Positions 27,962 through 35,077 of a stretch of DNA of 64,000 nucleotides are shown piece by piece. The notes below the pieces were generated by a model that was given only the letters and a program-made list of their open reading frames with translations, was not told the origin of the DNA and ran no database searches. The number at the start of each line of letters is the position of its first letter. The stretch's first letter is position 1. Origin of the DNA: Anaerolineae bacterium (GTDB lineage: Bacteria > Chloroflexota > Anaerolineae > UBA1429); NCBI GenBank assembly GCA_040768605.1, contig JAXGMP010000001.1:1483740-1547739 (forward strand), written 5' to 3'. The translations under genes were made by a program, and so were the position numbers.

Positions 27962-29185
27962 CTACAGGCCTGCCTGGTCCATGCGGCGCAGCGCCTCTTC
28001 GTAGACCTCGTAGCGCTCCGCCTCGCGCTCCTCCGGGTCCACCCACTTGAGCCACAGGGCGCTATCGGGGCGCGCCCCGGCGATCTCACGGCGACTACGG
28101 TGCCAGTCGGCATCGGGACCGTGCCAGCGGACCTCGCGATCCTGCAAGAGGATGAACTGCCCGGCATAGTCGCGGAACCTGGCCGCGTTGTCCCGGTAGT
28201 AGAGTGCCTGCTCGCACATGGTCCTCCGCCAAGAGGCCACCGTCGCTCCGCTATCGGGCTGGTCGGCGTAGAAGCGTCCCAACGGGGCGCTCACCTCAGA
28301 GGCCCAATCGATCTCTGCGAGGTCGGCGGTGCCAAAACCGTGCTCGTGGCACACCAGGCCCGGGTTGCGGTCACGCCCGTAGGGCATGGTCGGCCAGTCC
28401 GCGACGGGGTCGTGCCCCATCAGGTGCGTGACCACCGCGTCGGTGGCGGTGACCTGGTCACCAGCGATCAGCGCGTCGCAGACGCGCGCCTCACCGCCCC
28501 ACTCGCTGCCGGCCTGTGCCACCAGCGCGTCGATGATGTTCAGTGTCGGCTGGATGGTTCGCCCCAGATCTGCGAGCACGTACGGCAGGCGGATGATGTG
28601 ATGGTAATAGTGGCGCGGCCGGCCGTAGGGAGGCTCGGTGCACAGCCCGAACAGGTTCTTGAGGCACAGCGTGACGCCCATGAACTTGTGGTTCTTGGCC
28701 TTCTGCACCGAGACGAAGGCGTCGGCCGCCACCACCGATTCCGGCAGCACGTACTCGCCGAACATCAGCCCGCCGCCCGGCACGGCCACGCTGCGCACCG
28801 GCGGCTGGTCCCCGTCGACAAAGGGCACGTCGAACTCGCGCAATACCGGCAGGAGCGTGATCGTCTCCTCCACCGTGTGCGGCCGGCCCGCCCCGCCCAT
28901 GACGCTGATCTCACAGCAGGTGATCTCGGCGGAGGTCTCTGCTCTCAGCAGGCGCAGCACCGCGCGCGCCACGCGATGGTCCACCAGCTCCTGGAGGTGC
29001 CCGGCGTGGTAACGCAGGCCGTCGGGGCTCCAGGCCTGGTTGAACTTGATCGAAATCGTCTTGGCGGCTTTCAGCGTGGCCCAGGTCGCGCTCAGGGGCG
29101 CGGTGGCGCGTTGCAGCGCCTCGTAGATGGCCTCGTCAGAGGACCGGTGATCACAACGCACGGCACGTACCAGCGGCTTGGACAT
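27962..29185 (-). CDS. DUF362 domain-containing protein
   Basis: ATG at 29185 (MSKPLVRAVRCDHRSSDEAIYEALQ...) with GGAGGGG upstream. Family-typical N-terminus. The 35-codon ORF-track extension is rejected. Confidence 0.8.
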   Translation of the reverse strand: MSKPLVRAVRCDHRSSDEAIYEALQRATAPLSATWATLKAAKTISIKFNQAWSPDGLRYHAGHLQELVDHRVARAVLRLLRAETSAEITCCEISVMGGAGRPHTVEETITLLPVLREFDVPFVDGDQPPVRSVAVPGGGLMFGEYVLPESVVAADAFVSVQKAKNHKFMGVTLCLKNLFGLCTEPPYGRPRHYYHHIIRLPYVLADLGRTIQPTLNIIDALVAQAGSEWGGEARVCDALIAGDQVTATDAVVTHLMGHDPVADWPTMPYGRDRNPGLVCHEHGFGTADLAEIDWASEVSAPLGRFYADQPDSGATVASWRRTMCEQALYYRDNAARFRDYAGQFILLQDREVRWHGPDADWHRSRREIAGARPDSALWLKWVDPEEREAERYEVYEEALRRMDQAGL

Positions 29186-29363
29186 GCGCCCCTCCCCGGG
29201 GGATGACTGATCCGGCGCGCACACGTTGCCAGGATGATAGACGCTTACGGCCGCCCCGGCAAGTGCCCGGCGCCCGTACACTTCGGGCATTGCCTCGCCC
29301 GGCCCAGCCGGCTAAGATAGCCGCACGCTCGGGATGACCCCATCCCGGCGAAAGGAGATCACC

Positions 29364-30332
29364 ATGTCCGAGTCGTTGCGAGTGGCAGTCATCGGCGCGG
29401 GGAACATTGCCAGGCGCTACCACCTCCCCTCTCTGGCGCGCCTGAGGGCGGAGGGCCTGGGGCTGGAACTGGCCGCTGTGTGCGACGTGGACCCGGCGCG
29501 CGCCGAAAGCGCCGCCGAGCGGTTCGGGTTCGCCCGGGCCGACACGGACTACCGGGCCATGCTCGATGCCGTCCGGCCCGACGCCGTGTGGGTGCTGGTG
29601 CCGTTCCAGGTCGTGCGCGAGGTGGCCGGGCACGTTCTGGCGCGCCGGGTGCCGCTGATCATGGAAAAGCCGCCCGGGCAGAACGTGGCCGAGGTGCGCG
29701 AGCTGGCCGCCATCGCCCAAGAGGCGGGCACCCCGCACCAGGTGGCCCTCAACCGGCGCTATGCGCCCCTCCTGCGGCGGGCCAAGGAACTCCTGGCCGA
29801 AGCCGGCCCGGTCAAGGCGCTCTCCTGCCAGTTCCTGCGGCACAACAGGCAGGAGGCCACGCACGCCTTTGGCACCGGCATCCACGGGCTGGACGCGCTG
29901 CGCTTCCTGGGCCCAGGAGAGGTGACAGAGGTGCACACGCGCCCCGTTGGCGCGAACGGCGCCCTGGTGACGCTGATCTTTGCCGGGGGCGCCGTCGCCC
30001 ACATGGAGATGCTGCCCCAGGTGGGCGTGCAGATGGAGCGCTACACCGCCCACGCCGGCACGCGCACCGTGGTCATCGACGGGTTGTACGAGCCGCTGAC
30101 GACCTATCCCGGCTACCTGCACTGCTACGACGCGGGACGGCTGGCCTTCTCCTGGGAGAACGCGGCCGCCCCGGCCCCGCCGGAGGTGATCTGCGGCTTC
30201 TATGGTGAGTCGGAGGCGTTCGTGCGCGCCCTCCACGAGGGGCGCGCCCCTACTCCGTCCCTGGCCGAAGCGCTGCGCTCCGTCGAGATCGCCCAGGCCG
30301 TGCAGGATGGCGCGTCGGTGGTGTTCGCATAG
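29364..30332 (+). CDS. Gfo/Idh/MocA-family oxidoreductase
   Basis: ATG at 29364 with AAAGGAG upstream. Rossmann N-terminus LRVAVIGAGNIARRYHLPSL and the EKP motif. Confidence 0.9.
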   Translation: MSESLRVAVIGAGNIARRYHLPSLARLRAEGLGLELAAVCDVDPARAESAAERFGFARADTDYRAMLDAVRPDAVWVLVPFQVVREVAGHVLARRVPLIMEKPPGQNVAEVRELAAIAQEAGTPHQVALNRRYAPLLRRAKELLAEAGPVKALSCQFLRHNRQEATHAFGTGIHGLDALRFLGPGEVTEVHTRPVGANGALVTLIFAGGAVAHMEMLPQVGVQMERYTAHAGTRTVVIDGLYEPLTTYPGYLHCYDAGRLAFSWENAAAPAPPEVICGFYGESEAFVRALHEGRAPTPSLAEALRSVEIAQAVQDGASVVFA

Positions 30333-30391
30333 TGCGCCCTGCCGGCGCCTGACTGGGCAACGCCACGGAATGCGCGAACGCGTGGCCGCCA

Positions 30392-30400
30392 TGCTATAAT
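30392..30400 (+). promoter_or_regulatory. Extended -10 promoter (TGcTATAAT) for the NfeD-flotillin operon
   Basis: A perfect TATAAT with a TG one nt upstream, about 30 nt before the NfeD start. No good -35 element. Confidence 0.4.
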
Positions 30401-30432
30401 GAGGGTGCTCCCGTCTAGGCAAGGAGGGCAGC

Positions 30433-31230
30433 ATGACGGTCTGGTGGTCCGGCTTGACCCCGTTGAACCAGGTTTTCTGGGGCTTGGTGGTGCTGTTTAG
30501 CACGCTGTTCGTGTGGCAGCTCGTCTCCGCCTTTGGCGGGCTGGTGGCGGCTGGCGACGGCGACCTGGATGGCGGGGCCGGCCTCGATCATGGCGGCGAC
30601 GGGCACCTCTTTGGCGGGCATGACGGGGATGGCCACTTTGCTGATGGCCACTTCGCGGACGCGCACGTTGGCGACGCGCATCTTGGCGACGCGCACCTGG
30701 GCGACGTGCACGTGGCGGACGCTCACCTGGGCGACGCTCACCTGGGCGACGCGCACGCCGCCGACCTGCACGCGGGCGACGCCCAAGGCGTGGATGACCA
30801 TGCCGCGCATCATCACTCCTCGGGCGTGGCGACGTTTCGCTTGCTGTCGGTACGGTCGATCTTGGCCTTCCTGACCCTGTTTTCCTGGGCCGCGGCGCTG
30901 TACTTGGGGGCCGACCTGCCTTATGCGCGGGCCTTCCTGCTCGCGGCCTCGTGGGGAATGGCTGGCATGGTGACCGTGGCTGCGTTCTTCTGGGCCATGC
31001 CCCGCCTGAGCGAGGAGGGCACCATGGACGTGTCCAGCACCGTGGGGATGACGGCCACGGTGTACGTGCACATCCCCCGCCAGGGGACGGGCCAGGTGCG
31101 CGTGCTGGTCGGCGAGCGCGTCGCCTACCTGCGCGCCCGCTCGGCCTCGGGCCTGGGGCTCAAGGCAGGGTCGTCGGTGCGCGTGGTCGGTGTCGATGGC
31201 TCGATCCTGGAGGTCGAGGAAGTCCGCTAG
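30433..31230 (+). CDS. NfeD-like membrane protein with a His/Asp-rich pentapeptide-repeat insert and a C-terminal OB-fold
   Basis: TM1, then (H-x-G-D-A)n repeats, then TM2-3, then a C-terminal NfeD beta-barrel-like segment (TVYVHIPRQGTGQVRVLVGERVAYLRARS...VRVVGVDGSILEVEEV). SD AAGGAGG. Followed by a flotillin gene. Confidence 0.8.
   Translation: MTVWWSGLTPLNQVFWGLVVLFSTLFVWQLVSAFGGLVAAGDGDLDGGAGLDHGGDGHLFGGHDGDGHFADGHFADAHVGDAHLGDAHLGDVHVADAHLGDAHLGDAHAADLHAGDAQGVDDHAAHHHSSGVATFRLLSVRSILAFLTLFSWAAALYLGADLPYARAFLLAASWGMAGMVTVAAFFWAMPRLSEEGTMDVSSTVGMTATVYVHIPRQGTGQVRVLVGERVAYLRARSASGLGLKAGSSVRVVGVDGSILEVEEVR
30631..30780 (+). repeat. About ten tandem copies of a 15-bp unit (GCGCACCTGGGCGAC-like) encoding H-L/V-G-D-A pentapeptides
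   Basis: The tandem repeat is seen directly. It is in-frame inside the NfeD-like gene, not a CRISPR array. Confidence 0.8.
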
Positions 31231-31270
31231 CGGCGTTGGTTCGGCCGCCCACCACAGGAGGAAGCATTCC

Positions 31271-32731
31271 ATGGGCTTCGAAGTGATCATCCTCGGGTTC
31301 ATCCTGGCGCTCATCATCCTGGGTACCTTTCTGACCGTCATCGGGCGCTACCGTCGCTGCCCGTCGAACCGCATCCTGGTGGTCTATGGGCGCACGGGCA
31401 AGGGCGCCGCCAAGACGATTCACGGCGGGGCGGCCTTTGTGTGGCCGCTGATCCAGGACTATGCCTACCTGAACCTGGAGCCGTTCGTGGTGCCCATCGA
31501 CCTCGACAACGCCCTTTCGCGAGAGAACATCCGCGTCTCCGTGCCGACCACGGTCACGGCGGCCATCTCGGTCGACCCCAGCCTGATGGCCAACGCCGCG
31601 GTGCGCCTGCTGGGCCTCAACAGCGAAGAAATCCGCTCGCAGGCGCAGGACATCATCCTAGGCCAGATGCGCGCCGTGATTGCCACGATGGCCATCGAAG
31701 AGATCAACCGCGACCGCCAGGCCTTCATGGCCAAGGTGAACGAGGCCCTCTCGGGTGAGCTCGAGAAGATCGGCCTGGAGGTCATCAACGTCAACGTCCG
31801 CGACATCGACGACGAGAGCGGCTACATCCAGGCCATCGGCCGCAAGGCCGCGGCCGAGGCCGTCAACCAGGCCCTGGTCGACGTGGCCGAGCAAGAGCGC
31901 CACGGCCAGACGGGCGTGGCCGAGCTCGAGCGCGACCGCCGCCGGGCCGTGGCCGCCGCCGAGGCCGCTGCGGAGATCGGCGAGAAGGAAGCGGAGCGCG
32001 ACCGCCGCCGGGTGACGGCCGGGCTGGACGCCGAGGCCGTCGAGGCCGAGGCCGAGGCCGAGGGCCAGAAGGCGACCTACAACGCCACCATGCAGGTGGC
32101 CCAGCAGGAAGCGCGCCGACGCGCCGAGGAGGCTGCCCGCGTGGCCGACGGACGTATCCGCGTGGCCGACGAGAACGCCCAACGCGACGCCGAGCTGGCC
32201 CGCGCCGAGCGCGAGCAGGCCCGCCTGCGCGCCGAGGTGGTGGTACCCGCCGAGGCCAACCGTGAGCAGGTCGTCATCGCCGCCGAGGCCGGCCGCGAGC
32301 AGCGGGCCGTCCTCGCTGAGGGTGAGGCCCGCGCCATCCTGGCCCGCATGGAGGCCGAGGCCCAGGGCACCCAGGCCATCCTGCGTTCCAAGGCCGAGGG
32401 GTACCAGGAACTGGTCAAGGCCACCAACGGCCTGCCCGAGGCGGCCGCCTCGTTCCTGATCATCGAGAAACTGGTCGACGTGGCCCGCGTCCAGGCGGAG
32501 GCGATCAAGAACCTGCCGCTGGACAAGGTCGTCGTCTGGGATAGCGGCAACGGTGAGGGCCTCTCTGGCCTGGGCAGGCGCTTCATGGGCGTGATCCCGC
32601 CCATGCACGAGCTGGCCCGCCTGGCCGGCCTAGACCTGCCCGACTTTCTCGGCAAGGTGACCAACGAGGAGGCCGGCCCGCCAGCCGGGAAGACTTCCTC
32701 AGAGGGCACCGCGGCGCCCGCCGAGGAGTAG
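31271..32731 (+). CDS. Flotillin-like SPFH/band-7 protein (FloT/YuaG-type)
   Basis: ATG at 31271 with AGGAGG upstream. N-terminal TM segment and SPFH domain. Long Glu/Ala/Arg-rich coiled-coil repeats (EAEAEAEGQ...), typical of flotillins. Confidence 0.9.
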   Translation: MGFEVIILGFILALIILGTFLTVIGRYRRCPSNRILVVYGRTGKGAAKTIHGGAAFVWPLIQDYAYLNLEPFVVPIDLDNALSRENIRVSVPTTVTAAISVDPSLMANAAVRLLGLNSEEIRSQAQDIILGQMRAVIATMAIEEINRDRQAFMAKVNEALSGELEKIGLEVINVNVRDIDDESGYIQAIGRKAAAEAVNQALVDVAEQERHGQTGVAELERDRRRAVAAAEAAAEIGEKEAERDRRRVTAGLDAEAVEAEAEAEGQKATYNATMQVAQQEARRRAEEAARVADGRIRVADENAQRDAELARAEREQARLRAEVVVPAEANREQVVIAAEAGREQRAVLAEGEARAILARMEAEAQGTQAILRSKAEGYQELVKATNGLPEAAASFLIIEKLVDVARVQAEAIKNLPLDKVVVWDSGNGEGLSGLGRRFMGVIPPMHELARLAGLDLPDFLGKVTNEEAGPPAGKTSSEGTAAPAEE

Positions 32732-32846: not shown

Positions 32847-33986
32847 GTGAACATCGATATGGCCCAGGACGACCTGAGCCCTCTGCAGGGCAGCGCGCGC
32901 TTTGTCACCTTTGGCGAGGTGATGGTGCGCGACACCCCGGCCGACATGGAGCGCCTCGAGCGCACCCGTCAGGTGCACCTATCGCTGGCCGGCAGCGAGT
33001 ACACCCTGGCCATGGGCCTCAGCCGCCTTGGCGTGCCCTCGGCGTTCATCACCCGCCTGCCCGATAACCCCTACGGCTGGCAGGTGCGCGACGTCGCCCG
33101 CGAGCAGGGGCTGAACGTCGACCACCTGGTGTGGGCGCCCAAGACGGAGCCGATCGGCCGCTACCTGTACGAACTGGGGCGCACGCCGCGCCAATCGACG
33201 GGCTGGTACCAGCGCATGTACTCGGCCGCCTCCAAGCTGGGACCCGGCATGGTCGATTGGCCCGCCGCCCTGCGAGACTGTCGCCTGCTGCACTCCTCGG
33301 GCATCACCTTCGGCCTGGCCAACCACAGCGGCTATGAGCGGAACTATTGCCTGGAAGCCCTCTATGAGGCGCTCGAGGCCCGCCCCGACGGCTGCCTGGT
33401 GGGCATGGACTACAACTACCGTTCCACGCTCTGGTCCAAGGAGCAGTGCGCCGCGGCGCTCACGCCGCTCCTGCGCGACCACGTCGATATTCTGATCACC
33501 ACTATCGAAGACATGGCCGCGCTGTACGGCCTGGGCGCTGGCCGCTACAGCCCCGACGAGATCGTCAAGGGCGACTTGGGCCCGCTAAGCGACCAGGACC
33601 TGCAGGCCTTCATGGCTGCCCTCCACGAGCGCTTCCGCCCTCAGATCGTGGCCGTCACCATCCGCTATCCCGACACGTTCGAGGAGCACCGCTGGGAATC
33701 GGCGGCGATGGATGCCGCGGGCAGCTACTTCCGCTCGCCGGCGGTGCGCAACATCGTGCTCTGGGATCGGCTGGGCGGCGGCGACACCTGGAACGCCGGC
33801 TTTTACTACGGCCTCCTCTCTGAAGAGGACCCCGCCCGACGGCTGGAGAAGGGCGTCATGGTGGGGGACGCGGCCACCTGCCTGAAGCAGACGCTCATGT
33901 TTGACCTGCCCATCGTCACCCGGCAGGAGGTTCAGGCCCTGCTGAACGCCTGGGCCAAGGGTGGCGGCAAGCGCACCGCGCGCTGA
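32847..33986 (+). CDS. PfkB-family sugar kinase
   Basis: GTG start with GAGGAGGA 8 nt upstream. C-terminal DRLGGGDTWNAGFYYGL motif (DTxGAGD variant). Confidence 0.88.
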   Translation: MNIDMAQDDLSPLQGSARFVTFGEVMVRDTPADMERLERTRQVHLSLAGSEYTLAMGLSRLGVPSAFITRLPDNPYGWQVRDVAREQGLNVDHLVWAPKTEPIGRYLYELGRTPRQSTGWYQRMYSAASKLGPGMVDWPAALRDCRLLHSSGITFGLANHSGYERNYCLEALYEALEARPDGCLVGMDYNYRSTLWSKEQCAAALTPLLRDHVDILITTIEDMAALYGLGAGRYSPDEIVKGDLGPLSDQDLQAFMAALHERFRPQIVAVTIRYPDTFEEHRWESAAMDAAGSYFRSPAVRNIVLWDRLGGGDTWNAGFYYGLLSEEDPARRLEKGVMVGDAATCLKQTLMFDLPIVTRQEVQALLNAWAKGGGKRTAR

Positions 33987-34024: not shown

Positions 34025-35077
34025 ATGAACGACGAGACCCGCGTGCAGCGCCTTGACGCCCCGGTCGCGACGATCGGGCGCGTGGCTCTCCACGGCGACC
34101 TGATCCTGGCGCCGATGATCGGCTACACCGATCTGCCCTTCCGGCTCATCTGCCGCGAGCTGGGCTCCGCCGCCTCCTACACGCCCTGCGTGCTTGACGA
34201 GGGGCTGGTGCGCGCCACCGAGCGCTCGCTCAAGATCACCGACTATGACGAGCGCGAGCGCCCCGTGGCCATCCAGATCATCGGCAAGGACGAGGAGCGC
34301 CTGCTGGAGGCGGGCCGCGCCGCACTGGCGTTGCACCCGGACCTGATCGACGTGAACATGGGCTGCCCGGCCCGCAAAGTCTCTGGCAAGGGCAGGGGGG
34401 CGGCGCTCCTGAAAGAGCCGCAGCGCGCCGGCCAGATCATGGCCGCGCTAGTGGCCGCCCTGCCGGTGCCGGTGACGGCCAAGATACGCCTGGGGTGGGA
34501 CGCCGACTCGCTGAACTACCTCGAGGTGGCCCGCACGCTCGCCGAGGCGGGCGCCGCGGCCATCACGGTGCACGGGCGCACCAGGGTTCAGGGCTACTCG
34601 GGAGTGGCCGACTGGTCAGCCATCGCCGCGGTGCGGCGGGCGGTGGCGGTGCCGGTCATCGCCAACGGCGACGTGCGCGCCGTGGCCGACATCGCCGCGA
34701 TCAAGGAGGCCACCGGCTGCGACCTGGTCATGATCGGCCGCGGCGCCATCGGCAACCCCTGGATCTTTTCCCGGCGAGACTCGGTGGACATCCCCTCCCC
34801 CGAGCGCGCCGCGATGATGCGCCGGCACCTGGCCGCCATGCGCGAGTACTATGGGGCGCGCCTGGGGCTACTCCTCTTCCGCAAGCACTCCGTCCGTTAT
34901 GTCCAGTTCTCTGAGGGTGTGCGCTTCTGGCGGCGGGCCTTTGGCGCGGCAGGCTCCGTAGAGGAGGTTCTGGCGCTCATCGACCGCCTGGAGGCCAACC
35001 CAGAGGATCCTCCCGGCCTCGACGCGCCCGAGCCCCCCGCCCCACCCGAGGGAGAGGACGAGGCGCCGCCCGCCTGA
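34025..35077 (+). CDS. dus: tRNA-dihydrouridine synthase
   Basis: Dus motifs LAPMIGYTDLPFR and DVNMGCP. Proline/glutamate-rich C-terminal tail. Confidence 0.92.
   Translation: MNDETRVQRLDAPVATIGRVALHGDLILAPMIGYTDLPFRLICRELGSAASYTPCVLDEGLVRATERSLKITDYDERERPVAIQIIGKDEERLLEAGRAALALHPDLIDVNMGCPARKVSGKGRGAALLKEPQRAGQIMAALVAALPVPVTAKIRLGWDADSLNYLEVARTLAEAGAAAITVHGRTRVQGYSGVADWSAIAAVRRAVAVPVIANGDVRAVADIAAIKEATGCDLVMIGRGAIGNPWIFSRRDSVDIPSPERAAMMRRHLAAMREYYGARLGLLLFRKHSVRYVQFSEGVRFWRRAFGAAGSVEEVLALIDRLEANPEDPPGLDAPEPPAPPEGEDEAPPA

What the first reader, a model, noticed from the sequence alone, without database searches (positions are those of the whole stretch)
30433..32731. NfeD-flotillin operon whose NfeD carries a His/Asp-rich (H-x-G-D-A)n pentapeptide tract encoded by 15-bp tandem DNA repeats
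The 265-aa protein has NfeD-short architecture (N-terminal TM segments plus a C-terminal OB-fold beta-barrel) and is followed, 40 nt downstream, by a flotillin (SPFH domain plus EA-rich coiled coil). This is the conserved NfeD/SPFH pairing. Unusually, about 90 residues between TM1 and TM2 form a run of ten H-[LVF]-[GA]-D-A units (GHFADGHFADAHVGDAHLGDAHLGDVHVADAHLGDAHLGDAHAADLHAGD) ending in HHH, encoded by near-identical 15-bp tandem repeats at 30631-30780. The His/Asp periodicity suggests a metal-binding or metal-sensing loop attached to a membrane-microdomain scaffold. The DNA repeat also makes the tract prone to slipped-strand length variation. A TGnTATAAT extended -10 element precedes the operon.
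Basis: partly seen in the sequence, partly recalled or inferred. Interest (0 to 1): 0.6.

Follow-up and report, generated by a model that had tools for sequence, protein, structure and literature searches.

The report
Flotillin partner with His/Asp repeat linker
This is an ordinary two-gene membrane-scaffold operon (an NfeD-type partner plus a flotillin) from an uncultured Chloroflexota bacterium, but its NfeD carries an unusually long floppy loop with a histidine every fifth residue, an extreme case of an acidic, often histidine-rich loop that the whole protein family shares and that I found described nowhere.

Summary
ORF 30433-31230 (+, 265 aa) is a short NfeD: three predicted membrane helices and a C-terminal OB barrel. 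Pfam NfeD passes its cut-off, the five best Foldseek matches are all NfeD structures, and the best PDB sequence match is B. subtilis YuaF. A flotillin-type SPFH gene (31271-32731) follows 40 nt downstream. This pairing was found in 42 of 42 related genome loci from several phyla.

The His/Asp tract is real. His sits at exact 5-residue spacing 13 times in a row (residues 53-113; p<1e-5), encoded by diverged 15-bp repeats. The identical protein occurs on 17 independently assembled contigs.

It is not a one-off. In this subfamily (about 5,000 representatives at 50% identity) the TM1-TM2 linker is acidic and almost free of Lys/Arg, with 7.4% His against 0.8% elsewhere. Other lineages carry His/Asp repeats of different periods.

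AlphaFold predicts the linker as disordered. Charge distribution places it in the cytoplasm, next to the flotillin assembly. His and Asp never change between units or alleles, while the other positions do.

The best reading is a selected, disordered, cation-binding or pH-titratable tether. Metal binding is untested. Length hypervariability is not supported. Verdict: a new variant of a known kind, of moderate interest.

The parts
30392..30400 (+). Extended -10 promoter-like element TGCTATAAT. No recognisable -35 hexamer.
   Evidence: It is the only TGNTATAAT in 64 kb, with 0.06 expected. It is invariant in the diverged allele L007, although the 5' half of the spacer differs there. The consensus promoter scan found no -35/-10 pair.
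30422..30427 (+). Shine-Dalgarno sequence AGGAGG, 5 nt before the nfeD ATG.
   Evidence: Read directly from the sequence. The N-terminus MxxWWxGL is conserved across the family, which fixes the start codon.
30433..31230 (+). nfeD-type gene, 265 aa. It is a flotillin-associated short NfeD (NfeD2/YuaF-like architecture).
   Evidence: Pfam NfeD. PDB match to YuaF. AlphaFold model plus Foldseek matches. 40 homologues in the word-indexed protein search, and 5,089 representatives at 50% identity.
30472..30549 (+). Transmembrane helix 1, residues about 14-39.
   Evidence: AlphaFold helix 10-40. Kyte-Doolittle windows above 1.6 start at residues 13-21.
30550..30831 (+). Disordered acidic His/Asp/Gly/Ala linker, residues 40-133. 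Composition: 17 His, 19 Asp, 21 Gly, 18 Ala, no Lys or Arg. Inferred to be cytoplasmic.
   Evidence: pLDDT is below 50 and the model shows coil. Composition and charge titration run from -1 at pH 5 to -18.5 at pH 8. Lys/Arg distribution gives the topology.
30556..30573 (+). D-G-D-L-D-G, residues 42-47. It matches the DxDxDG pattern just after TM1.
   Evidence: Pattern match in the window linker. The motif is found in 30 of 135 family linkers, against 11.3 expected from shuffles.
30586..30825 (+). Full phase-locked pentapeptide tract: 16 units, with His at position 2 in 15 of them.
   Evidence: Unit table. His positions 53-113 lie at exact spacing 5, with 123 and 128 in the same phase.
30631..30780 (+). 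Core array of ten 15-bp units encoding x-H-[FLVA]-[GA]-D.
   Evidence: Tandem Repeats Finder. Unit table. Against allele L007, 21 of 135 nt differ in units 1-9 and 23 of 663 elsewhere.
30832..31002 (+). Conserved FRLLSxRS motif followed by the TM2-TM3 helical hairpin, residues 134-190.
   Evidence: AlphaFold helices 129-159 and 164-196. These are the most conserved columns of alignment A1.
31036..31218 (+). C-terminal NfeD OB-fold (partner-binding) domain, residues 202-262.
   Evidence: Pfam PF01957. pLDDT is above 90. Foldseek matches to 2k14, 3wwv, 2k5h and 3cp0 have TM-scores (target-normalised) of 0.56-0.85.
31256..31261 (+). Shine-Dalgarno sequence AGGAGG for the flotillin gene.
   Evidence: Read directly from the sequence.
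31271..32731 (+). Flotillin-type SPFH gene, 486 aa. It has an N-terminal TM helix (residues 4-24) followed by RYRR, a Band_7 domain (residues 31-209), and an Ala/Glu/Arg-rich coiled-coil region.
   Evidence: Pfam Band_7 E=2.9e-29. NCBIfam FloT gives a partial match of 137.8 bits. Human flotillin-1/2 cryo-EM chains score E=8e-32 over residues 29-454. Hydropathy and composition.

Best explanation
The two genes form the conserved module of a bacterial flotillin (SPFH2 type) and its NfeD2-type partner.

How the NfeD is built. By analogy with the E. coli QmcA-YbbJ cage and with B. subtilis NfeD2-FloT, it is anchored by three membrane helices and docks its C-terminal OB domain onto the cytoplasmic flotillin assembly. 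This subfamily has an insert between TM1 and the TM2-TM3 hairpin: an intrinsically disordered, strongly acidic linker almost free of Lys and Arg. The positive-inside rule places the linker in the cytoplasm, at or under the flotillin dome.

What happened in this lineage. The linker grew to 94 residues by tandem duplication of a 15-bp unit. The ancestral G-D-[LF]-[AG]-D pentapeptide now carries His in place of the first Asp. This gives 13-15 His in strict register, each with an Asp three residues later.

What it most likely does. The His and Asp positions are held by selection while the other positions drift. I therefore think the tract works as a multivalent, low-affinity ligand array for divalent cations (transition metals for the His version, Ca/Mg-type ions for the Asp-only relatives). 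Its charge and compaction would change with metal load or pH, and this would tune how the NfeD tether behaves inside the flotillin assembly.

Shown here: gene identities, pairing, disorder prediction, periodicity, family-wide composition, and conservation of His and Asp.
Inferred: cytoplasmic location, docking to flotillin, cation binding.
For: Identity:
- Pfam NfeD scores 30.0 bits against a cut-off of 29.1, and Band_7 scores 102.8 bits.
- The family profile hits YuaF 2k14 at E=0.0024.
- The five best Foldseek matches are all NfeD structures, including YbbJ in the QmcA-YbbJ complex.
- Human flotillin-1 matches at E=8e-32.

Pairing:
- The NfeD gene is directly followed by a flotillin gene on the same strand in 42 of 42 genome loci. 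These come from Chloroflexota, Planctomycetota, Thermodesulfobacteriota, Verrucomicrobiota and Lentisphaerae.
- No other conserved neighbour was found.

Disorder:
- Residues 41-128 are coil, with most of residues 43-120 below pLDDT 50, while the OB domain is above 90.

Topology:
- Mean Lys+Arg counts are 1.74 before TM2 and 1.34 after TM3, against 0.24 in the N-terminal tail and 0.46 in the TM2-TM3 loop.
- The flotillin TM helix is followed by RYRR.
- The QmcA-YbbJ cage is reported to protrude into the cytoplasm (PMC13086221).

Selection on the tract:
- Within the ten units, all 14 amino-acid differences fall at positions 1, 3 and 4. None falls on His or Asp, although synonymous codons differ.
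- Allele L007 differs at 15.6% of nucleotides in units 1-9 and 3.5% elsewhere, yet every His and Asp is kept and the length is unchanged.
- A third variant differs by 10 changes, all synonymous.

Family-wide signal:
- Linkers of 135 diverse representatives contain D 23.8%, G 16.2%, H 7.4% (0.8% in the rest of the protein) and K+R 0.6%.
- 37 of 136 linkers (the window protein included) have at least 5 His.
- Other lineages have independent His/Asp repeats of other periods: SHDGHDF x4 in P0187, HTDx x5 in P0172.
- DxDxD is enriched (317 observed, 81 expected), and DxDxDG occurs in 30 proteins against 11 expected.

Asp-to-His replacement:
- His in the window aligns with Asp in the closest His-free relatives. 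GHFAD aligns with GDFAD/GDLAD in P0004-P0006, and H63 and H68 align with Asp in P0003.

Background from the literature:
- B. subtilis NfeD2 co-localises and co-migrates with FloT and depends on it (PMC4928834).
- Deleting a flotillin-like COG2268 gene in Shewanella lowered free iron three-fold (PMC1468410).
Against: - No metal-binding test exists, and no metal-related gene is linked to the operon.
- 34 of 136 representatives have no His in the linker, and close relatives at 52-60% identity lack it. His is therefore dispensable for the core function.
- Across the family, adjacent HH and HxH are depleted (z = -3.6 and -4.4). These are the spacings typical of high-affinity His sites.
- Free transition-metal levels in the cytoplasm are very low (general knowledge).
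- The nfeD2 deletion in B. subtilis has no phenotype (PMC4928834).
- The topology rests only on the positive-inside rule and on analogy. An acidic loop after an uncharged N-terminal tail could in principle be exported.
- The Pfam NfeD score is only just above its threshold.
Confidence: 0.45

Rival explanations
1. The tract is a neutral low-complexity expansion. The linker only has to be flexible and acidic. The His/Asp pentapeptide array is a by-product of replication slippage in a tolerant disordered region and has no specific ligand function.
For: - Linker length ranges from 21 to 126 residues, and His content from 0 to 20, across the family.
- Close relatives lack His.
- Nucleotide divergence is 4-5 times higher in the array than in the rest of the gene.
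- One unit was gained in the sister cluster.
- AlphaFold predicts disorder.
Against: - His and Asp are invariant across ten units and across alleles, while positions 1, 3 and 4 vary and synonymous codons differ.
- His keeps its register even in the degenerate flanking units, 15 of 16.
- All four full-length alleles have the same length.
- His is enriched nine-fold in linkers across phyla, in independent repeat types.
Confidence: 0.27
2. The tract is a pH-responsive switch rather than a metal binder. With 17 His interleaved with 19 Asp, the linker changes from a near-neutral polyampholyte to a strong polyanion over the physiological pH range, and so expands or collapses. This would couple flotillin/NfeD behaviour to cytoplasmic or near-membrane pH.
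For: - Computed net charge is -1.1 at pH 5, -5.9 at pH 6, -14.9 at pH 7 and -18.5 at pH 8.
- The B. subtilis yuaF-floT operon belongs to the sigma-W regulon, which is induced by alkaline shock among other stresses (PMC2636767).
- The regular His spacing and the depletion of HH and HxH fit distributed charge better than chelation sites.
Against: - Cytoplasmic pH is buffered.
- Asp-only relatives cannot titrate in this range.
- There is no experimental evidence.
- The idea is not exclusive of metal binding.
Confidence: 0.15
3. The topology is the opposite one. The N-terminus is inside and the acidic His/Asp loop and the OB domain are exported, so the tract captures metals outside the membrane, like the His/Asp loop of periplasmic ZnuA-type proteins.
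For: - The N-terminal tail is uncharged and the segment after TM1 is strongly negative, which can favour export of that segment (sequence; general knowledge on acidic residues and the proton-motive force).
Against: - The Lys/Arg distribution over the short loops favours linker-in and OB-in, about 3.1 against 0.7.
- The partner flotillin has RYRR after its single TM helix, which places its SPFH domain in the cytoplasm.
- The solved QmcA-YbbJ cage is reported to be cytoplasmic (PMC13086221).
Confidence: 0.1
4. The A-H-L-G-D units form a folded pentapeptide-repeat right-handed beta-helix (A[D/N]LXX type) rather than a disordered loop.
For: - The unit A-H-[LFV]-[GA]-D has Ala at i-2 and Leu/Phe at i with period 5, as in the pentapeptide-repeat consensus. 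This resemblance is recalled from memory and is a lead only.
Against: - No Pfam hit, Pentapeptide families included, even at E up to 10.
- AlphaFold gives coil with pLDDT below 50 across the tract.
- Ten units would make only 2.5 coils.
- Relatives have linkers of quite different periods.
Confidence: 0.03

Closest known systems
B. subtilis yuaF(nfeD2)-floT(yuaG) operon, the NfeD2/SPFH2 pairing of Hinderhofer et al. 2009 (PMC2636767)
   Same: - The gene order is the same: a short NfeD gene directly upstream of a flotillin-type SPFH gene.
- The NfeD has N-terminal hydrophobic helices and a C-terminal OB barrel.
- YuaF is the best PDB sequence match and the second-best fold match.
- There is no ClpP protease domain.
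   Different: - Typical short NfeDs are 140-175 aa with three adjacent hydrophobic stretches (PMC2636767).
- Here a 94-residue acidic His/Asp linker separates TM1 from TM2-TM3.
- The flotillin does not reach the FloT equivalog cut-off (137.8 against 700 bits).
- There is no yuaI-like third gene.
E. coli QmcA-YbbJ SPFH-NfeD cage (PDB 8z5g; Tan et al. 2024, cited in PMC12624060 and PMC13086221)
   Same: - YbbJ is the best Foldseek hit, aligned over TM helices and the OB domain (E=1e-5).
- It gives the structural precedent for an NfeD sitting 1:1 in a cytoplasm-facing SPFH cage.
   Different: - QmcA is a stomatin-type SPFH1 protein, not a flotillin (E=8.7e-5 only).
- The overall superposition is poor (TM-score 0.22-0.35, rmsd 10).
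- From its length of 148-152 aa I infer that YbbJ has no long acidic or His-rich linker. I did not inspect its sequence.
E. coli yqiJ-yqiK (DUF1449 inner-membrane protein plus flotillin-family protein)
   Same: - The operon logic is the same.
- YqiJ has the same layout: TM1, a short linker free of Lys and Arg containing D-A-H-L-D-H, a basic residue before TM2, and a C-terminal beta domain (PMC2636767).
   Different: - No detectable sequence homology to this family (hhalign probability 0.8%).
- The linker is only about 30 residues with 5 His and is not repetitive.
His/Asp-rich flexible loops of metal-handling proteins: RcnA and CDF/ZIP transporter cytoplasmic loops, the ZnuA loop, and the Ala-His-Asp repeats of Plasmodium HRP2. 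These are recalled from general knowledge and were not tested here.
   Same: - A low-complexity His plus Asp composition in a flexible segment of a membrane or metal-handling protein.
- HRP2 is likewise built of short Ala/His/Asp tandem repeats.
   Different: - Those loops usually contain HH or HxH clusters. Here His are strictly 5 apart.
- The host protein is a scaffold partner, not a transporter or chaperone.
- No homology is implied.

Membership tests
NfeD (Pfam PF01957; short, protease-less form) | C-terminal OB-fold beta-barrel (partner-binding domain) | tested here: met
   - PF01957 covers residues 202-262 at 30.0 bits against a cut-off of 29.1.
- The AlphaFold barrel (strands 207-263) has pLDDT above 90.
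- The five best Foldseek PDB matches are all NfeD domains.
- The family profile hits YuaF at E=0.0024.
NfeD (Pfam PF01957; short, protease-less form) | N-terminal hydrophobic membrane helices, with no ClpP-type protease domain | tested here: met
   Three helices at 10-40, 129-159 and 164-196, with supporting hydropathy. Pfam reports no other domain.
NfeD (Pfam PF01957; short, protease-less form) | Encoded next to, and co-oriented with, an SPFH gene | tested here: met
   The gap to the Band_7 gene in the window is 40 nt. The pairing holds in 42 of 42 related loci.
NfeD (Pfam PF01957; short, protease-less form) | Physical association with the SPFH partner | not testable with these tools
   Known only by analogy: NfeD2-FloT co-migration (PMC4928834) and the QmcA-YbbJ structure.
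NfeD2 / YuaF-type (Hinderhofer 2009) | The partner is a flotillin-like SPFH2 protein | tested here: met
   Near full-length match to human flotillin-1/2 (E=8e-32 and 4e-27). Partial match to the NCBIfam FloT model.
NfeD2 / YuaF-type (Hinderhofer 2009) | Compact size (about 140-175 aa) with three adjacent hydrophobic stretches | tested here: not met
   This protein is 265 aa, and the family is typically 200-225 aa, because of the TM1-TM2 linker. The typical size comes from PMC2636767.
Flotillin / SPFH2 | SPFH (Band_7) domain after an N-terminal membrane anchor | tested here: met
   PF01145 covers residues 31-209 at E=2.9e-29. A hydrophobic segment at residues 4-24 is followed by RYRR.
Flotillin / SPFH2 | Long C-terminal Ala/Glu-rich coiled-coil (flotillin) region | tested here: met
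   The alignment to flotillin-1 extends to residue 454. Residues 216-400 contain 48 Ala, 32 Glu and 25 Arg out of 185. Imperfect tandem repeats lie in this region.
FloT equivalog (NCBIfam NF058507) | Score at or above the curated cut-off of 700 bits | tested here: not met
   137.8 bits. It is a flotillin-family protein, not a FloT orthologue by this model.
YqiJ / DUF1449 | Sequence homology to E. coli YqiJ | tested here: not met
   hhalign probability is 0.8% and E=0.073 over 32 columns. No Pfam YqiJ-family hit.
Pentapeptide-repeat beta-helix proteins | Match to the pentapeptide-repeat profile and a predicted quadrilateral beta-helix | tested here: not met
   No Pfam hit at E up to 10. AlphaFold gives coil with pLDDT below 50.
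Contingency (phase- or length-variable) repeat locus | Frequent unit-number polymorphism among close strains, typically changing frame or expression | tested here: not met
   The unit is 15 nt, so changes stay in frame. All five full-length members of the 90% cluster (four distinct alleles) are 265 aa. A single change of one unit is seen in the sister cluster.
DxDxDG calcium-binding motif | Sequence pattern D-x-D-x-D-G | tested here: met
   Residues 42-47 read D-G-D-L-D-G. The motif is found in 30 of 135 family linkers, against 11.3 expected.
DxDxDG calcium-binding motif | Structured loop context and actual Ca2+ coordination | not testable with these tools
   The region is predicted to be disordered, and no binding data exist.
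Anti-phage defence systems (PADLOC) | Match to any PADLOC model | tested here: not met
   No hit for either protein at E up to 0.01.

The most novel reading that the evidence does not exclude
The acidic, His-studded, Lys/Arg-free linker is a functional module of a large flotillin-associated NfeD subfamily. Suppose NfeD sits 1:1 with flotillin, as YbbJ does with QmcA. Dozens of such linkers would then fill the cytoplasmic space under each flotillin dome. That would make a dense polyanionic His/Asp brush that binds or buffers divalent metals (or protons) and so gates or tunes the scaffold. This would give bacterial flotillin microdomains a direct link to metal or pH homeostasis, with lineage-specific tuning by tandem-repeat expansion and Asp-to-His replacement.
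Probability: 0.2. Interest if true: 0.65.

Novelty: new variant of a known kind. Interest (0 to 1): 0.4.

Why it matters
The roles of NfeD proteins and of bacterial flotillins are still unclear; the nfeD2 deletion in B. subtilis, for example, has no phenotype. This work identifies a large NfeD subfamily (about 5,000 representatives at 50% identity). Its only fast-evolving part is a disordered linker with non-random chemistry. It is acidic, lacks basic residues, is nine-fold enriched in His, shows DxDxD alternation, and carries repeated independent His/Asp tandem arrays.

That gives a concrete and cheap hypothesis to test: cation or pH responsiveness of the NfeD-flotillin assembly. The window protein has 13 His in perfect register and is a natural best-case peptide for such a test. 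If the test is negative, the tract is simply a well-documented example of selection-constrained repeat turnover in a disordered membrane-protein loop.

Tried and rejected
1. Assembly artefact. Rejected: the identical protein is on 17 contigs from independent runs and on an NCBI metagenome-assembled genome, and there is a variant with synonymous changes only.
2. Pentapeptide-repeat beta-helix. Rejected: no Pfam hit at E up to 10, and AlphaFold predicts coil.
3. Homology to E. coli YqiJ. Not detectable. Only the architecture and a DAHLDH motif are alike.
4. A conserved third gene or a metal-related neighbour. None was found beyond clade-level synteny with PfkB and Dus genes. The first clustering attempt was polluted by shadow ORFs inside the flotillin gene and was redone.
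5. Unit gain plus loss between the two alleles. A unit-level alignment cannot separate 24 substitutions from about 16 substitutions plus two unit indels, so I make no claim either way.
6. A metagenome scan for more close alleles gave only 9 loci and no new His-tract alleles.
7. A regex-anchored extraction of linkers caught only 33 of 152 proteins. It was replaced by an alignment-based extraction.
8. Defence-system membership. No PADLOC hit.
9. Literature. No paper in the library contains both 'NfeD' and 'histidine-rich'. The Tan et al. 2024 structure paper is not held and is cited only through other papers.
10. A sigma-70 -35/-10 pair or an intrinsic terminator for the operon. None was found by the consensus scan. 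Whether transcription continues into the PfkB gene is open.


Full report
**1. What is in the sequence**

The ORF at 30433-31230 (+) encodes 265 aa. AGGAGG lies 5 nt upstream of its ATG. The N-terminus MTVWWSGL matches the family consensus MxxWWxGL, which fixes the start.

Tandem Repeats Finder reports a period-15 array at 30658-30756 (6.6 copies, 83% matches) and a period-45 version running to 30782. Cutting the gene into 15-nt units in frame gives ten units at 30631-30780: GHFAD GHFAD AHVGD AHLGD AHLGD VHVAD AHLGD AHLGD AHAAD LHAGD. Degenerate units that keep the His register flank them: DHGGD, GHLFG and GHDGD upstream, and AQGVD, DHAAH and HHSSG downstream.

His occupies residues 53, 58... 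113, which is 13 in a row at spacing 5, and then 123 and 128 in the same phase. 15 of 17 His and 14 of 19 Asp lie in one phase, and none of 100,000 shuffles reached this. The units are diverged, at 71-83% identity. Only units 6 and 7 are identical, so 'near-identical' overstates it.

**2. It is real, not an assembly artefact**

The exact protein is encoded on 17 contigs. They come from several independent sequencing runs and from an NCBI metagenome-assembled genome. One of these (L005) differs by 10 nucleotides, all synonymous. The 90%-identity cluster is annotated as Chloroflexi/Chloroflexota bacterium.

**3. Gene identities**

*The NfeD.* Pfam NfeD (PF01957) matches residues 202-262 at 30.0 bits, just above the cut-off of 29.1. 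A profile of 37 family members hits B. subtilis YuaF (2k14) as its best PDB sequence (E=0.0024).

The AlphaFold model (mean pLDDT 75) has these elements:
- a helix at residues 10-40;
- coil through residues 41-128, with most of residues 43-120 below pLDDT 50;
- helices at 129-159 and 164-196;
- a beta-barrel (strands 207-263) with pLDDT above 90.

Its five best Foldseek PDB matches are all NfeD structures: YbbJ in the QmcA-YbbJ complex, YuaF, P. horikoshii 1510-C, MTH693 and 3cp0.

*The flotillin.* The downstream gene (31271-32731, 486 aa) has a Band_7 domain (E=2.9e-29). It aligns almost end to end with human flotillin-1 and flotillin-2 cryo-EM chains (E=8e-32 and 4e-27). It matches the NCBIfam FloT model only partially, at 137.8 bits against a cut-off of 700. 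It has one N-terminal hydrophobic helix followed by RYRR, and an Ala/Glu/Arg-rich region.

In the classification of Hinderhofer et al. 2009, this is an NfeD2-SPFH2 pair, like yuaF-floT and yqiJ-yqiK (PMC2636767).

**4. Conservation of the module**

A scan of one genome per species returned 42 loci. They come from Chloroflexota/Anaerolineae, Planctomycetota, Desulfomonilaceae/Syntrophales, Verrucomicrobiota and Lentisphaerae, plus one Oscillospiraceae. In all 42, the NfeD homologue is directly followed by a flotillin homologue on the same strand. After removing shadow ORFs, no other neighbour is conserved beyond clade-level synteny.

A full HMMER scan of 1.84 billion representatives found 5,089 proteins at E<=1e-3 and 2,583 at E<=1e-10. 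This is a large subfamily.

**5. The linker is a family trait; the window is an extreme**

I extracted linkers by alignment from about 85 homologues and from 135 diverse representatives. Their median length is 42 residues (range 21-126).

| Residue(s) | Linker | Rest of protein |
|---|---|---|
| Asp | 23.8% | 2.5% |
| Gly | 16.2% | 9.9% |
| Ala | 12.0% | 9.5% |
| His | 7.4% | 0.8% |
| Lys + Arg | 0.6% | 7.4% |

(Composition.)

34 of 136 linkers have no His, 37 have at least 5, and 9 have at least 10. These counts include the window protein; the other figures in this section are for the 135 representatives without it.

Other lineages carry their own repeats:
- SHDGHDF x4 (P0187, 20 His);
- HTDx x5 (P0172);
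- GHDF-type repeats (P0149, P0159);
- a 126-residue Asp-only repeat linker (P0183).

Across the family:
- His residues avoid adjacency (HH z=-3.6, HxH z=-4.4) and prefer spacings of 5-7;
- HD dipeptides are enriched (z=5.1);
- D-x-D-x-D alternation is strongly enriched (317 observed, 81 expected);
- D-x-D-x-D-G occurs in 30 proteins against 11 expected, and the window has one at residues 42-47.

The window protein has the longest His-bearing linker and the cleanest period. It is not qualitatively unique.

**6. Origin of the tract**

In alignment A1, the window's G-H-F-A-D aligns with G-D-F-A-D and G-D-L-A-D in the His-free relatives P0004-P0006 (52-57% identity). H63 and H68 align with Asp in P0003. 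The sister cluster (P0002 and P0046, 60% identity) has the same H-x-G-D-x unit.

I infer that an ancestral acidic pentapeptide acquired His in place of Asp, a one-nucleotide change from GAC to CAC, and was then amplified.

**7. Evidence for constraint**

Within the ten units, all 14 amino-acid differences lie at positions 1, 3 and 4. His and Asp are invariant, although His is encoded by both CAC and CAT and the neighbouring codons vary.

A second allele group (P0041, P0042 and P0045, from other samples) differs at 44 of 798 nt. Of these, 21 lie in the 135 nt of units 1-9 (15.6%) and 23 lie in the remaining 663 nt (3.5%). Outside the array there are only 2 amino-acid changes. Inside it there are 7, and none touches His or Asp. 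The length is again 265 aa.

The array core therefore turns over faster, by substitution, conversion or unit gain and loss; cannot tell which. The ligand-type residues and the length are nevertheless kept.

In the sister cluster, one allele has exactly one extra GDIHA unit (236 against 241 aa). Unit changes do happen, but this is not a hypervariable contingency locus. Being 15 nt long, the unit cannot switch the reading frame.

**8. Where the loop is**

Mean Lys+Arg counts across the family:

| Segment | Mean Lys+Arg |
|---|---|
| N-terminal tail | 0.24 |
| Linker | 0.10 |
| Conserved FRLLSxRS segment before TM2 | 1.74 |
| TM2-TM3 loop | 0.46 |
| After TM3 | 1.34 |

The positive-inside rule therefore favours this topology: N-terminus out, linker in, hairpin loop out, OB domain in. 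This fits two other points. The partner flotillin has a cytoplasmic orientation, with RYRR after its TM helix. The E. coli QmcA(YbbK)-YbbJ cage of 26 heterodimers is reported to protrude into the cytoplasm (PMC13086221).

This placement is an inference, at roughly 70% confidence. The opposite topology is kept as a rival.

**9. Mechanism**

Shown here:
- an NfeD2-type protein and a flotillin in a fixed two-gene module;
- a predicted disordered linker;
- strict His/Asp periodicity under constraint;
- a family-wide cation-ligand-like composition.

Inferred:
- The OB domain docks on the flotillin assembly. In B. subtilis, NfeD2 co-migrates with FloT and needs it for focus formation (PMC4928834).
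- The linker then hangs in the cytoplasm at or under the dome.

My preferred reading is a multivalent, low-affinity divalent-cation array. In the His version this would favour transition metals. Binding would neutralise and compact the linker. The computed net charge also moves from -6 at pH 6 to -17 at pH 7.5, so a pH response is a close rival and is not exclusive of metal binding.

There is a weak external hint. Deleting a flotillin-like COG2268 gene in Shewanella lowered EPR-detectable free iron three-fold (PMC1468410).

Against a specific metal role:
- there is no metal-related neighbour;
- many relatives lack His;
- HH and HxH are depleted;
- there are no data at all.

**10. Expression signals**

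TGCTATAAT at 30392-30400 is the only TGNTATAAT in 64 kb, with 0.06 expected. In the diverged allele L007, the 5' part of the 100-nt spacer has many changes. The last roughly 70 nt, which include this element and the ribosome-binding site, are nearly invariant.

No -35 hexamer and no terminator were found by the consensus scan. The upstream GFO/IDH/MocA gene and the downstream PfkB gene are co-oriented, so read-through cannot be excluded.

**11. Novelty and verdict**

The operon type is textbook.

I found no published description of the His/Asp repeat linker: no paper in the library contains both 'NfeD' and 'histidine-rich'. It is, however, an extreme member of a family-wide pattern and not a singular oddity. 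I rate it a new variant of a known kind, of moderate interest. The family-level linker chemistry is the more useful lead.

Noticed in passing
window 31882-31955, 32041-32063, 32123-32236: The flotillin gene has its own imperfect in-frame tandem repeats (periods 33, 6 and 21 nt) inside the Ala/Glu/Arg-rich coiled-coil region.
   Followed up: no
Relatives P0187, P0172, P0159, P0149, P0183: Other members of the same NfeD subfamily have independently built repeat linkers of different periods: SHDGHDF x4 with 20 His, HTDx x5, GHDF-type repeats, and a 126-residue Asp-only DSDLDVAGPDLDV repeat. This suggests convergent evolution of His/Asp arrays at the same position.
   Followed up: partly
Family linkers; window 30556-30573: D-x-D-x-D alternation is about 4-fold enriched over shuffles in the linkers of 135 representatives (317 against 81). 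The DxDxDG calcium-binding-like pattern is about 3-fold enriched. The window keeps one copy, D-G-D-L-D-G, right after TM1.
   Followed up: partly
L053:2209-2838 (E. coli K-12 yqiJ): E. coli YqiJ is the partner of the flotillin-family protein YqiK. It shows no detectable homology to this family, yet it has the same layout and a D-A-H-L-D-H motif in a linker free of Lys and Arg between TM1 and TM2.
   Followed up: partly
window 30333-30432, against L007 5901-6000: In the diverged allele, the 5' third of the intergenic spacer upstream of nfeD is heavily substituted. The 3' roughly 70 nt (extended -10 element, 5' UTR and ribosome-binding site) are almost invariant. This suggests a constrained promoter or leader.
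   Followed up: partly
window 30415-31341 (-): A 308-aa antisense ORF overlaps the whole nfeD gene, and similar long ORFs overlap the flotillin gene in other frames. They behave as shadow ORFs of GC-rich coding DNA, and they contaminated the first neighbour clustering.
   Followed up: yes
window 27962-29290 (-), 29334-30332 (+), 32847-33986 (+), 34025-35077 (+): The flanking genes are a DUF362 protein, a GFO/IDH/MocA oxidoreductase, a PfkB-family kinase and a tRNA-dihydrouridine synthase (Dus). The PfkB and Dus neighbours recur only in related Anaerolineae loci.
   Followed up: partly
L038 4558-6100; L051 4468-4785: In two related loci the flotillin homologue is split into two ORFs (L038) or is short (L051). 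These may be frameshifts, pseudogenes or assembly errors.
   Followed up: no
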